A DNA stretch of 27,752 bases from Candidatus Odinarchaeota archaeon (lineage in GTDB: Archaea > Asgardarchaeota > Odinarchaeia > Odinarchaeales > Odinarchaeaceae): positions 2,692 through 30,443 of the forward strand of contig JAWBON010000007.1 of the NCBI GenBank assembly GCA_038826135.1, written 5' to 3'. Each line of letters starts with the position of its first letter. The stretch's first letter is position 1. A program made the position numbers and the translations under genes. The notes beneath the pieces are model-generated. The model did not search any database, had not been told where the DNA came from, and saw only the letters and a list, made by a program, of their open reading frames with translations. This document shows, one piece after another, positions 34 to 10,419 of the stretch.

Positions 34-180
34 CCCGCCGTAGCTTAGTGGCAGAGCACTCGGCTGTAGAATTTAACCGGTGGTTAAATTTATCTCAACC
101 GAGGCTCATACAGCAGAAACCGAGACAGGCCGTATAGCCTGCGGGAAGGGTCGCTGGTTCAAATCCGGCCGGCGGGACCA
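34..180 (+). tRNA. tRNA-Tyr(GTA) with two introns (70-118 at 37/38; 125-147 at 43/44), CCA encoded
   Basis: Acceptor stem CCCGCCG(34-40)/CGGCGGG(170-176), C1-G72 and A73 typical of archaeal Tyr. D arm GCTT/GAGC; anticodon stem CTCGG(59-63)/CCGAG(120-124); anticodon GTA 66-68; T arm GCTGG-TTCAAAT-CCGGC (153-169). Removing both introns gives a 75-nt cloverleaf with a 5-nt variable loop GGGTC. Confidence 0.92.
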
Positions 181-7527: not shown

Positions 7528-7698
7528 TGGTGGGGTCGAAGGGATTTGAACCCTTAACCATTCCTCAAAAGGATTTTAAAATCCTTTCTACGAGTTTCTT
7601 CAGGTACGCTCCAGAATATCTTCATCCAGTACGTCAGTTAAGCAATTCAGAGCTGTTTTTCTGGAGCCCGTCGTCCTACCTGGTTAGACCACGACCCC
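7528..7698 (-). tRNA. tRNA-Trp(CCA) with two introns (7596-7660 at 37/38; 7561-7589 at 43/44), CCA encoded
   Basis: Minus strand: GGGGTCG(7698-7692)/CGACCCC(7538-7532)+ACCA. Anticodon stem ACGGG/CTCGT, anticodon CCA 7664-7662, T arm AAGGG-TTCAAAT-CCCTT. Removing both introns gives a 77-nt cloverleaf with variable loop TGGTT. Confidence 0.92.
7596..7660 (-). ncRNA. Putative box C/D guide RNA within the tRNA-Trp 37/38 intron
   Basis: D'-like CTGA (7637-7634), C'-like ATGAAGA (7625-7619), CTGGAGC (7614-7608) antisense to the tRNA's own anticodon loop, and D box CTGA (7603-7600). No clear box C. Intron-encoded C/D guides in pre-tRNA-Trp are known in euryarchaea. Confidence 0.55.
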
Positions 7699-7733: not shown

Positions 7734-7744
7734 TTTATTCGGTT

Positions 7745-7759
7745 AAAGAAAGAGTTAAA
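7745..7759 (-). terminator. T-rich tract after the 5S precursor
   Basis: Minus strand TTTAACTCTTTCTTT immediately follows the precursor's closing helix; archaeal terminators are typically oligo-T tracts. Confidence 0.4.
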
Positions 7760-7908
7760 GGTAGTATCGTTCCGTGTTCGAGATGAGAACGGGTGTTTCC
7801 TTCCGCCTATGGCCGCCAGCGAACTGGCAGCACTATATGTTCCCGTGGGCTCTCGCACCACAGTACTTATATAGTCGCGCGGAAGCTTAACTTTCACGCG
7901 ATACTACC
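7760..7908 (-). rRNA. rrf: Circularly permuted 5S rRNA gene (3' half 7892-7824, UUCG linker 7823-7820, 5' half 7819-7771) flanked by a BHB motif
   Basis: Reordered, the halves read CUGGCGGCCAUAGGCGGAAGGAAACACCCGUUCUCAUCUCGAACACGGA|AGUUAAGCUUCCGCGCGACUAUAUAAGUACUGUGGUGCGAGAGCCCACGGGAACAUAUAGUGCUGCCAG. All 5S helices form: helix I GCUGCCAG/CUGGCGGC, II GCGGAAG/CUUCCGC, V ACUAUAU/AUAUAGU, loop E AGUA/GAA, IV CUGUGG/CCACGG. Confidence 0.93.
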
Positions 7909-7931
7909 ACCTACTTGAAAATAATAATTCA

Positions 7932-7939
7932 TATATAAA
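7932..7939 (-). promoter_or_regulatory. Candidate TATA box for the 5S precursor
   Basis: TTTATATA on the minus strand preceded by GAATAAA (BRE-like). Standard spacing puts the start site near G7908, the first base of the BHB outer helix. Confidence 0.6.
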
Positions 7940-7947
7940 TTTATTCA

Positions 7948-8448
7948 CTAGTTAACTGGTTCACCGTCCACGTTGATTTCACCGCGTCTGATTCTAGTTG
8001 AGGATATGGGTGTTTTATCATAGGCGAGTATCATGTCAACAATGACTATTTCAAGTGGTTTAAGACCTTTATTAATTCTAATCTGGTTGATTTCCATCGC
8101 GGTTTTAAGCGTTTGCTCAGTTACAACTAGGGCGTCTATGTTATTTTCAGACACAGCTGGGCCGTATTTATCATTTAACATGATAACTTCGAAGTCCGCT
8201 TTTTTGAACGATGTTTTTATAAATTTTAGAACCATTTTCTCTCTAACCTGGTATGTTTGAAGCCCCTCGGACCAGGGTTTATTCTTACAGAATTCATCGC
8301 TTGTTACCCCTATAATCACTTTCCCACCTAGTGAGAAGGCTTTGGTTAAAAGATGTTTATGACCTTTATGGAAGTGGTCGAACGTCCCCCCAACCGCTAC
8401 CACCCTGTATTTTTGTTGTTCAACAGAGCTATCGGACAACACGATCAA
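7948..8448 (-). CDS. coaD: Phosphopantetheine adenylyltransferase (archaeal/eukaryotic type)
   Basis: VAVGGTFDHFHKGHKHLL (HxGH), LNDKYGPA, LVVTEQT and ISSTRIRRGEI motifs. Confidence 0.9.
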   Translation of the reverse strand: MIVLSDSSVEQQKYRVVAVGGTFDHFHKGHKHLLTKAFSLGGKVIIGVTSDEFCKNKPWSEGLQTYQVREKMVLKFIKTSFKKADFEVIMLNDKYGPAVSENNIDALVVTEQTLKTAMEINQIRINKGLKPLEIVIVDMILAYDKTPISSTRIRRGEINVDGEPVN

Positions 8449-8520: not shown

Positions 8521-8907
8521 TTAGAAGCTTTTACTTTTCTCCTCTTCAATCGTGTAAACAGCCTTGATATATGCTACTCCATCACAGTCTTTGCATTTAC
8601 CTATTTCTTTGAATATGTAATCTCCTTTCCTAAACTCTCTTATCTCAGAGTAGCCGCACTTATCGCATTTAATCACAGTCATAGTATTTACAGGTTTCAT
8701 TAAAGGCGGCACCGGTCTTACCCCGATATTAAATAATGTAGTTACAAATGAGAAGAGGAGGAATCCCATTATAATATAGAGGAAATTATTCAGGGTGATG
8801 CCTAGATACATAAGGTATGCCGCTCCAGCCGCTATACACACTCCTATTATTACCGCGATTATTCTTGATAGTTTTCCCGGTCCCTTCTTAGATTCTTCAC
8901 CACTCAT
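8521..8907 (-). CDS. Small membrane protein with C-terminal Zn-ribbon
   Basis: Two TM segments followed by CDKC...CKDC (REFRKGDYIFK between them). Tightly coupled to the upstream DUF1512 gene. ATG 8907 preferred. Confidence 0.7.
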   Translation of the reverse strand: MSGEESKKGPGKLSRIIAVIIGVCIAAGAAYLMYLGITLNNFLYIIMGFLLFSFVTTLFNIGVRPVPPLMKPVNTMTVIKCDKCGYSEIREFRKGDYIFKEIGKCKDCDGVAYIKAVYTIEEEKSKSF

Positions 8908-8908
8908 C

Positions 8909-10033
8909 TTATACACCGATCCCTATCGTGTTACCTATACCGGCGACTATAACGATATCGCCTGGTTTAGTCCGCTCGTTAATAGCTGATTTAACCCGGT
9001 TCACCACTTTTTCAACAGCTTCAGCTAATTCTTTTTTAAGCGAGGTTACAGCTTCCTCAATAGTTTCCTTCACGATTATAGCATCTAAAGGTATGTTGAA
9101 TGTTACACCAGTATCCTCCATTTTAAATTTCTCCACCCCCGGTCCACCGATCGCTGCTCCGACACCCTCCGCCACTTCACCTGATTTTTCACCTTCAAGC
9201 CTTAACGCTGCATCTATTGTTATAATCCGGGTCACCTTACCCCCATTCTCTTCAACTATTTTTTTAATAGCTTCACCAGGTTTCCCTACAGCTCCACCGG
9301 GCCCCTGCGCTCTGACAATGTAAAGTTTACGATCCTCATAGTCTAGTTCATAAACCATAGTGTCTTTAGTGTAGTTTAAAATCTCTTTCACAGGTTTACC
9401 AGCCTTCTTATATTCTTTAGCCAAGGATGTGGCGATGAACGGGCCTATCGAGTCACCAATCGGCTTACCCTCTGAGAAGGCGCGCAGCGCCTCAAAATAA
9501 GCGCTCGCTATTCTCATAATCTCCGATAATTGCATTTGTAACTGGATGATGAATATATAGCTTTTTGATTTTTTAGCTAAAAGATAATAGTGTCTAACAA
9601 CTTTAAATATGAAGTAAACAGCTTGCGCTGCTTCAAGAAGATTCTCAAGATTCTGTATTTCAGATTCCGGAGCGGTTGGTGCTAGTTGTCTAACCTGCAT
9701 TTCAAACCGGCTGTCTCTTATATCTAAAATATGCTCAAGCCTTTTCAATACACCCGCTGGATCTTTATCCACCGGTTCTATAGTGAAGAATTCCAGGAAA
9801 TTATTTACGGCATTAGTTGGATCAATATCACATTTACAAACCTCTTTTATAGTGTTAACAGTTATAGACTTACCTTTAGAAGAGTACAGTTCTAGCTTAG
9901 CTAGCGCCCCCTCTATCTGCTTACTCATAGCCCAGATCTGAATTCTCTGAGCAAATATTATGTATATGAAGAAGAAAACGTATATTAATATAGAAAATAT
10001 AGAGTTAATATCACTTCCAAAGTCAAATTGCAT
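8909..10033 (-). CDS. DUF1512 family protein (N-terminal TM)
   Basis: Recognised from IGDSIGP, ITIDAALRLEGE, GVGAAIGGPGVEKFKME and GIGNTIGIG. ATG 10033 follows a GAGGTG SD-like motif; the ORF-track extension to 10153 is unlikely to be real. Confidence 0.8.
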   Translation of the reverse strand: MQFDFGSDINSIFSILIYVFFFIYIIFAQRIQIWAMSKQIEGALAKLELYSSKGKSITVNTIKEVCKCDIDPTNAVNNFLEFFTIEPVDKDPAGVLKRLEHILDIRDSRFEMQVRQLAPTAPESEIQNLENLLEAAQAVYFIFKVVRHYYLLAKKSKSYIFIIQLQMQLSEIMRIASAYFEALRAFSEGKPIGDSIGPFIATSLAKEYKKAGKPVKEILNYTKDTMVYELDYEDRKLYIVRAQGPGGAVGKPGEAIKKIVEENGGKVTRIITIDAALRLEGEKSGEVAEGVGAAIGGPGVEKFKMEDTGVTFNIPLDAIIVKETIEEAVTSLKKELAEAVEKVVNRVKSAINERTKPGDIVIVAGIGNTIGIGV

Positions 10034-10419
10034 TAAATTTACACCTCGAACGAGAAGCAGTGGCAGCGTACTCCACTTAATTCTAGAGCATTTAACATAA
10101 AAAGAGATATAAGACATTTTAATAAATCTTTCGCATGGTAATCTACCATGCAACTATGAAATTAAGCTATGAGGCTGCGGACATAATTAAAAATAATTTA
10201 TAGATTAATATCGACTATACTCTGAAAATTTGAAGCATCAATTATTTTTCTCACAAAATCATATATCTTTTTTAAGGAGAGCAATAACTGCTTTAACAGT
10301 CACTATAACAAAATATATTAGATTCTTTAACACTAAAAAATTATCGCGTTAACAATATATTTTTTACATCAACCTAGTAAAACTGATTTAATAATATTAG
10401 GGGCTAAAATTACTGGAAA

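What the first reader, a model, noticed from the sequence alone, without database searches (positions are those of the whole stretch)
7812..7831. Native 5S ends joined by a UUCG tetraloop: mature 5S may stay covalently closed
Seen: helix I (GCUGCCAG/CUGGCGGC) is capped by only UUCG, with no spacer or obvious processing signal. Inference: after BHB ligation the product may function as a circular 5S rRNA with no free ends, as reported for the circular Thermoproteus SRP RNA, perhaps for thermostability or exonuclease resistance. Alternatively, a second cut in the loop linearises it.
Basis: inference. Interest (0 to 1): 0.65.

Follow-up and report, generated by a model that had tools for sequence, protein, structure and literature searches.

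The report
Tetraloop-sealed permuted Asgard 5S rRNA
This Odin-type Asgard archaeon encodes its only detectable 5S ribosomal RNA back half first, with the normal ends joined by a four-base loop and the new ends set in a tRNA-splicing signal, so its ribosome probably carries a closed ring of 5S RNA, although no RNA data could confirm that here.

Summary
An 8-bp helix I is closed by UUCG (7823-7820) inside a circularly permuted 5S rRNA gene (7892-7771), whose new ends lie in a bulge-helix-bulge (BHB) motif. Cutting and joining there would restore the conserved 5S sequence as a 122-nt ring. It is the only 5S found in this genome, and no ordinary 5S was found in three congeners, one of them closed. 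The permuted layout was found in at least 17 Asgard families. Of 65 distinct helix I hairpins, 63 have a 3-7-nt loop, and 45 of the 52 four-base loops are YNCG, while the stem covaries. The loop is kept even where the gene opens elsewhere. This fits a retained structural cap better than a spacer that is cut out. A 4-nt connector at this site works in engineered E. coli ribosomes. A closed ring is my best reading (about 0.6) but is not shown: the RNA runs gave no test. Thermostability is not supported as the reason. This scan has reported the arrangement many times on other Asgard DNA. I found no paper describing it.

The parts
7932..7939 (-). Archaeal TATA-box-like element (TTTATATA) about 24 nt upstream of the outer stem; predicted own promoter
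   Evidence: Seen in sequence; a similar A/T box lies upstream of relatives' loci; start site not mapped
7899..7908 (-). Leader: 5' arm of the 10-bp outer processing stem
   Evidence: 5 of 5 counted pairs show two-sided changes in relatives
7892..7898 (-). BHB 5' strand: CGUG (central helix) plus AAA bulge; predicted cut between 7893 and 7892
   Evidence: central helix 97% paired and near-invariant in 20 relatives
7824..7892 (-). Native 3' part of 5S rRNA (69 nt: 3' strands of helices III and II, helix V, loop E, helix IV, 3' strand of helix I), encoded first
   Evidence: RF00001 match; reconstruction
7820..7823 (-). UUCG tetraloop joining the native 3' end (7824) to the native 5' end (7819); closing pair G-C
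   Evidence: YNCG in 45 of 52 four-base loops across the phylum
7812..7831 (-). Helix I hairpin (8 bp + UUCG): the finding itself
7771..7819 (-). Native 5' part of 5S rRNA (49 nt: 5' strand of helix I, loop A, helix II, loop B, helix III, loop C), encoded second
   Evidence: RF00001 match; reconstruction
7770..7776 (-). BHB 3' strand: CACG (central helix) plus GAA bulge; predicted cut between 7771 and 7770
7760..7769 (-). Trailer: 3' arm of the outer processing stem
7745..7759 (-). U-rich tract right after the stem; possible archaeal terminator
   Evidence: Seen in sequence; inference

Best explanation
The gene is transcribed from its own promoter as a precursor of about 150 nt. Leader and trailer pair into a 10-bp stem with a (relaxed) BHB motif. 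The tRNA splicing endonuclease cuts after the second base of each bulge, and RtcB joins 7771 to 7892, restoring the conserved CACGGA-AGUUAAG stretch of helix III/loop B. The product is a 122-nt covalent ring: a normal 118-nt 5S fold whose helix I is capped by UUCG. The loop is kept and the ring is what enters the 50S subunit. SHOWN here: gene layout, sole detectable copy, BHB, covariation, presence of the endonuclease and ligase genes, phylum-wide short capped linker. INFERRED: transcription, cleavage, ligation (about 0.9 together), and retention of the closed loop in ribosomes (about 0.65-0.7 given ligation).
For: (1) No ordinary 5S in G000 or in three congeners, including the one-contig 98%-complete G002, and the joined junction is not encoded in any of them; uL18 is present. 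(2) Cutting by the standard BHB rule gives exactly the native-order 5S, matching the uninterrupted GAAGUUAAG-type stretch of ordinary-5S Asgard families. (3) EndA alpha with Tyr/His/Lys, a second EndA-like subunit and RtcB are encoded. (4) Linker survey: 65 distinct hairpins, 91 genomes, 17 families. The loop is 3-7 nt in 63 and 4 nt in 52, of which 45 are YNCG; YNCG is the majority in 12 families. The closing pair varies freely (GC 16, CG 14, AU 12, UG 5, UA 5), and several families use unrelated 3-7-nt loops, so this looks like a structural cap, not a fixed nuclease sequence. (5) Helix I is 6-13 bp, similar to the 7-12 bp of ordinary-5S relatives, so nothing extra is left to trim. (6) Five genomes open the gene in loop C instead and keep the same capped helix I. 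(7) E. coli ribosomes with 5S native ends joined by a 4-nt connector support growth, and those ends lie at least 50 A from 23S rRNA (PMC7283268). (8) FAU-1/RNase W, the nuclease associated with archaeal 5S maturation (PMC11602121), was not found in the four genomes of this genus. (9) Precedents: circular SRP RNA (PMC4731332) and tetraloop-capped circular 23S rRNA in ribosomes (PMC12918454).
Against: No read or contig shows the junction or spans the loop for this organism, so every RNA step is inferred. A stable loop would also be selected if it only helped the precursor fold. Very short linkers can be opened in permuted tRNAs (1 and 7 nt; PMC3218864). [quoted passage not shown] The BHB conformer is 2.2 kcal/mol above the predicted minimum (central-pair probability 0.05 at 37 C, 0.16 at 70 C), and the first inner pair is G-A here (unpaired in 12 of 20 relatives), so a relaxed-specificity endonuclease is needed. 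G000 is 93% complete. DUF402 presence does not track permutation across the phylum.
Confidence: 0.62

Rival explanations
1. The ring is a processing intermediate. After ligation an endonuclease nicks or removes the UUCG loop, giving an ordinary linear 5S of 118-122 nt with ends near 7819 and 7824.
For: This is how permuted tRNAs mature, including archaeal ones with 1- and 7-nt linkers (PMC3218864), and how pre-16S and P. furiosus 23S circles are re-opened. tRNase Z can cut the 5' end of an archaeal 5S in vitro (cited in PMC11602121). All characterised cytoplasmic 5S rRNAs are linear (own knowledge).
Against: There is no spacer, bulge or tRNA-like element at the linker. The loop is held at 3-7 nt and is mostly YNCG over 17 families, whereas removable linkers of permuted tRNAs range over 1-85 nt. 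Opening is not structurally required. FAU-1/RNase W was not found in this genus.
Confidence: 0.22
2. The RNA works as a linear, permuted 5S. It is cut at (or trimmed near) the BHB but not, or only partly, ligated, with helix I permanently capped and the free ends in helix III/loop B.
For: Brown-algal mitochondrial 5S rRNAs are permuted in the final product, with helix I replaced by a hairpin (PMC4267664). An E. coli 5S opened in loop C and tethered to 23S gave viable cells.
Against: The break falls in the region bound by uL18/uL5. The BHB register gives a seamless junction, RtcB is present, and EndA products are RtcB substrates. Earlier scan notes report the joined form in RNA of other Asgard lineages (not checked by me).
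Confidence: 0.1
3. The locus is a non-functional or assembly-derived rearranged copy, and an ordinary 5S gene lies elsewhere, unassembled.
For: G000 is 93% complete in 105 contigs, and rRNA genes are often missing from such assemblies.
Against: The same layout occurs in closed genomes (G002, G017, G027, G029, G040), with compensatory changes in all 5S helices and the outer stem. Permuted and ordinary genes were found in different families.
Confidence: 0.03

Closest known systems
Permuted, circular SRP RNA of Thermoproteus tenax / T. uzoniensis (Plagens et al. 2015, PMC4731332)
   Same: Gene halves swapped, leader and trailer form a BHB, EndA/RtcB ligation restores a functional region, native ends replaced by continuous sequence, gene missed by annotation, mature form reported as circular.
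   Different: Here it is a ribosomal RNA. Helix I is kept whole and capped by a tetraloop (SRP helix 1 is lost). It spans most Asgard families sampled rather than two species, and ligation and circularity were not shown here. This genome's own SRP RNA is ordinary.
Circular 23S rRNA in Methanosarcina acetivorans ribosomes (PMC12918454)
   Same: BHB-derived ring retained in ribosomes, with the native ends capped by a tetraloop.
   Different: That gene is not permuted: ligation makes the cap. Here the cap is encoded in the gene and ligation repairs the inside of the molecule. That paper states that 5S rRNAs are not known to go through excision and circularisation.
Permuted tRNA genes of Thermofilum pendens and Cyanidioschyzon merolae (PMC3218864)
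   Same: 3' half before 5' half, BHB at the new ends, circular product of ligation, linkers as short as 1-7 nt.
   Different: tRNAs must be re-opened to be aminoacylated, and RNase P and tRNase Z recognise the tRNA shape (own knowledge). 5S needs no free ends.
Permuted mitochondrial 5S rRNA of brown algae (Valach et al. 2014, PMC4267664)
   Same: A natural 5S in which a hairpin takes the place of the open helix I.
   Different: Linear, with ends at the three-way junction and no splicing motif or ligation; organellar.
Circular 5S reads in Sulfolobus and Halobacterium (PMC3326292, PMC12558985)
   Same: 5S circles of about 123 nt have been seen in archaea.
   Different: They come from ordinary genes, at low level and with variable ends, and are proposed to be degradation or processing by-products. 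Here circularisation would be obligatory and exact.
Engineered E. coli 23S-cp5S rRNA (Huang et al. 2020, PMC7283268)
   Same: Native 5S ends joined by a 4-nt connector; ribosomes are active.
   Different: Artificial, bacterial, and fused into 23S rRNA.

Membership tests
5S rRNA (RF00001) | Three-way junction fold with helices I-V and conserved loop A, C and E motifs | tested here: met
   Both halves match RF00001; the reordered 118-nt sequence folds into the 5S shape; helices I, II, IV and V covary
5S rRNA (RF00001) | Gene reaches the Rfam gathering score in native order | tested here: not met
   34.6 and 22.5 bits for the halves against a cut-off of 38, because the order is swapped; the reordered sequence itself was not scored
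5S rRNA (RF00001) | Linear molecule with free ends at helix I | not testable with these tools
   No reads obtained
5S rRNA (RF00001) | Incorporated into the large subunit with uL5/uL18 | not testable with these tools
   uL18 gene present; no obvious Asgard ribosome among the solved uL18 relatives listed (organisms not shown)
BHB-spliced permuted circular ncRNA (Thermoproteus SRP type) | Gene halves in swapped order, native ends joined by continuous sequence | tested here: met
BHB-spliced permuted circular ncRNA (Thermoproteus SRP type) | Leader and trailer form a BHB whose cleavage and ligation restore the native sequence | tested here: met
   10-bp outer stem, 4-bp central helix, two 3-nt bulges; relaxed on the inner side
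BHB-spliced permuted circular ncRNA (Thermoproteus SRP type) | Splicing endonuclease and RtcB encoded | tested here: met
   The alpha subunit is split over two contig ends. A Lys-containing insert resembles the crenarchaeal-specific loop of PMC3241643; resemblance from memory, not aligned
BHB-spliced permuted circular ncRNA (Thermoproteus SRP type) | Ligated junction seen in RNA | tested here: inconclusive
   0 reads laid from two raw-read runs; no test
BHB-spliced permuted circular ncRNA (Thermoproteus SRP type) | Mature functional form is a closed circle | not testable with these tools
   Needs RNase R, gels or end mapping; only comparative support
Permuted RNAs re-opened after ligation (permuted tRNAs; P. 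furiosus 23S) | A removable segment and a known nuclease signal between the mature ends | tested here: not met
   Only a 4-nt loop on a full-length helix I; no spacer, bulge or tRNA-like element. An unknown loop nuclease is not excluded
Extra-stable c(UUCG)g tetraloop | UUCG closed by a C-G pair | tested here: not met
   Closing pair is G-C in this genus; C-G in only 14 of 52 four-base loops

The most novel reading that the evidence does not exclude
Most Asgard lineages, including this Odin-type archaeon, can make 5S rRNA only through tRNA-type splicing, and their ribosomes carry it as an obligatory covalently closed ring with no ends. Because the functional unit is a ring, the gene's opening point has moved in evolution (helix III versus loop C) while the capped helix I stayed.
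Probability: 0.55. Interest if true: 0.85.

Novelty: new variant of a known kind. Interest (0 to 1): 0.7.

Why it matters
If true, a universal ribosomal RNA is made as an end-less ring in most lineages of the archaea closest to eukaryotes, and 5S supply depends on the tRNA splicing endonuclease and RtcB. It would explain why standard tools miss 5S genes in these genomes: only 47 of 151 reach the Rfam cut-off, while the permuted model finds strong matches in most of the other families. It would show that free 5S ends are dispensable in nature, and it raises the question of whether the lineage leading to eukaryotes had a linear 5S or went back to one. It is directly testable in cultured Lokiarchaeia or in existing small-RNA data. 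No paper in the library describes it; most subscription journals were not searched.

Tried and rejected
RNA evidence: no RNA holder was listed for this stretch. Laying four hot-spring runs on 7741-7920 gave 0 reads from the two raw-read runs (about 12% of each read) and only two short contig pieces from a run that is probably DNA, so there was no test either way. The 31-nt piece ending at 7771 has 2 differences and could come from any 5S; I did not use it. A scan of JGI contigs for linker plus joined junction in one stretch gave 77 hits; the ones I inspected after filtering were chance matches or genomic Loki-type genes. The listed loci were all over 1 kb, so a 122-nt ring is unlikely to be held there; no evidence either way. 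Thermostability as the cause was rejected for lack of support (phylum-wide spread; G-C closing pair). A link between loss of FAU-1/RNase W and permutation across the phylum was rejected: several permuted families keep it and one ordinary-5S family lacks it. What looked like tandem 5S arrays in family f24 were single permuted genes at contig ends. The sigma-70 promoter scan does not apply to archaea. ViennaRNA gives g(UUCG)c and c(UUCG)g the same energy, so it could not rank closing pairs. Five of the linker parses were wrong and were redone; four loci could not be parsed.

Full report
Observation. On the minus strand, window 7831-7812 reads GCTGCCAG-TTCG-CTGGCGGC: an 8-bp helix (one U-G pair) with a four-base loop at 7823-7820. 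It is predicted to form with probability 0.97-1.0 at 37 C and 0.81-1.0 at 70 C, and only four such hairpins occur in the 1.26-Mb genome. Rfam RF00001 matches the sequence on each side of the loop separately and in swapped order, each below the gathering score, which is why a routine scan misses it. The closing pair is G-C, not the C-G of the extra-stable c(UUCG)g loop (own knowledge).

What the locus is. The gene runs 7908 to 7760: a TATA-like box at 7939-7932, a 10-bp outer stem (7908-7899 with 7769-7760), a central 4-bp helix (CGUG with CACG), and two 3-nt bulges (AAA, GAA). Cutting after the second base of each bulge releases 7892-7771 (122 nt). Joining the ends gives CACGGA-AGUUAAG, and opening the ring at the loop gives a 118-nt sequence with the 5S fold. 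The join can shift by one base because of the flanking A residues. The inner side of the motif is relaxed: the first inner pair is G-A here, and is unpaired in 12 of 20 relatives. The BHB form is 2.2 kcal/mol above the predicted minimum, so it is a minor form in this calculation. This is the only 5S-like sequence in G000 (93% complete). No ordinary 5S reached the cut-off in three congeners, including the one-contig G002, and the joined junction is not encoded in any of the four. The genome encodes uL18, RtcB, an EndA catalytic subunit with Tyr, His and Lys, and a second EndA-like subunit. A Lys-containing insert in the catalytic subunit resembles the loop that gives crenarchaeal enzymes broad specificity (PMC3241643; resemblance from memory, not aligned). 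Loci of two congeners are identical to records titled Candidatus Odinarchaeota J65_bin.29 and Odinarchaeia RPA3, which places the window in the Odin-type Asgard archaea.

Distribution. A covariance model of the permuted form matched 102 of 151 phylum genomes; the weakest of these are ordinary genes. RF00001 passed its cut-off in 47 genomes, essentially families f6, f12, f16, f22 and f25, whose genes are in ordinary order. The one marginal exception (G098) is a permuted gene. Named permuted loci include Jord-, Frey-, Atabey-, Baldr- and Odinarchaeia and Asgardarchaeum; 19 of the 20 pattern hits among 185,579 genomes were these or an unnamed archaeon with the same layout. In 20 distinct sequences, 94.7% of cells pair and 31 of 42 pairs show changes on both sides, far above shuffled and slid controls. 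Helix I is 100% paired, the outer stem covaries at all five counted pairs, and the central BHB helix is near-invariant. These sequences are related, so the counts are not independent events.

Does the loop stay? I surveyed the linker in 98 loci from 91 genomes and 17 families (65 distinct hairpins). The loop is 4 nt in 52, 3 nt in 6 and 5-7 nt in 5. Of the two remaining, one is a UUCG loop on a longer, bulged helix and one has a 31-nt insertion. Of the 52 four-base loops, 45 are YNCG (39 UNCG); YNCG is the majority in 12 families. The closing pair is free (GC 16, CG 14, AU 12, UG 5, UA 5), and families f5, f8, f14 and f21 use other short loops. Helix I is 6-13 bp, against 7-12 bp in ten of the eleven ordinary-5S relatives measured (one parsed poorly). 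Five genomes of family f9 open the gene in loop C instead, with their own BHB-like motif, and keep the capped helix I. A short, stability-biased, sequence-tolerant loop on a full-length helix is what a retained cap looks like (inference). Removable linkers of permuted tRNAs range from 1 to 85 nt (PMC3218864). Opening is not needed for function: E. coli grows with a 5S whose native ends are joined by a 4-nt connector, and those ends lie at least 50 A from 23S rRNA (PMC7283268). FAU-1/RNase W, associated with archaeal 5S maturation, was not found in the four genomes of this genus, although its presence does not track permutation elsewhere. Against this: a stable loop could be selected only to fold the precursor, linkers of 1-7 nt are opened in Thermofilum tRNAs, and an unknown loop nuclease cannot be excluded from sequence.

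RNA. No RNA holder was listed, and laying four runs gave no test. A contig scan for the ring gave nothing usable. Earlier notes of this scan report the joined junction in environmental RNA of other Asgard lineages. I did not check these, and a junction alone does not separate a lasting ring from a re-opened one. One of those notes carries later odds of 35 in 100 for the closed-ring claim, which kept my estimate moderate.

Mechanism and odds. Transcription, BHB cleavage and ligation: about 0.9 (inferred). Closed ring as the ribosomal form: 0.62 overall. Re-opened at the loop: 0.22. Linear permuted, unligated: 0.10. Non-functional copy: 0.03. Thermostability is not supported as the driver: the layout is phylum-wide, includes SRVP genomes that I know as wetland-soil organisms, and this lineage does not use the most stable closing pair. 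Resistance to exonucleases is plausible but untested.

Comparison and novelty. It works most like the Thermoproteus SRP RNA (PMC4731332). Rings in ribosomes have a precedent in M. acetivorans 23S (PMC12918454), hairpin-capped 5S in brown-algal mitochondria (PMC4267664), and low-level 5S circles in Sulfolobus and Halobacterium. None of these is a permuted 5S gene that needs splicing. Five literature searches found no description of one; subscription journals are largely outside that library. This scan has reported the arrangement many times in other genomes (141 notes held the search words). Verdict: a new variant of a known kind; the anatomy is solid and the closed mature state is likely but unproven. 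Interest 0.7.

Noticed in passing
window 7531-7698 (-): tRNA-Trp(CCA) 61 nt downstream of the 5S trailer, apparently with two introns: a long anticodon intron with C/D-box-like motifs and a hairpin insert in the variable arm. Missed by the default ARAGORN scan, found by Rfam and ARAGORN with introns. A C/D box RNA also neighbours the permuted SRP gene of T. tenax.
   Followed up: partly
window 34-180 (+): tRNA-Tyr with an anticodon intron and a second insert in the variable-arm region; many tRNAs of this genome carry introns.
   Followed up: no
L133 (G121:C7:20109-20274, -): 31-nt structured insertion inside the helix I linker itself; removing it would give an 8-bp helix with a tetraloop. It may be an intron with a relaxed BHB or a plain helix extension.
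   Followed up: partly
L134, L135, L139, L140, L141 (family f9): Second permutation point in loop C with its own BHB-like motif; helix I cap unchanged.
   Followed up: partly
L124, L127, L129, L136, L138, L143, L144, L121, L130, L140, L141; L011/L016 (Atabeyarchaeia): Extra inserts of about 30 nt in 5S genes (loop C, helix IV region, or nested at the 5' splice junction), several with BHB geometry: probable introns in 5S rRNA.
   Followed up: partly
G000:C16:2586-5357 (L044, L045): RtcB lies in a 995-aa frame with its Pfam match split by about 470 residues, suggesting an intein.
   Followed up: no
G000-G003: FAU-1/RNase W (DUF402) not found in any of the four genomes of this genus, including closed G002, though present in the sister family.
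   Followed up: partly
G029, G076, G008, G083, G134, G158 (family f4): Two different permuted 5S genes per genome.
   Followed up: no
window 7948-8448 (-), 8521-8916 (-), 8909-10153 (-): Upstream on the same strand: phosphopantetheine adenylyltransferase ending just before the 5S TATA box, and two overlapping ORFs with no NCBIfam match.
   Followed up: no
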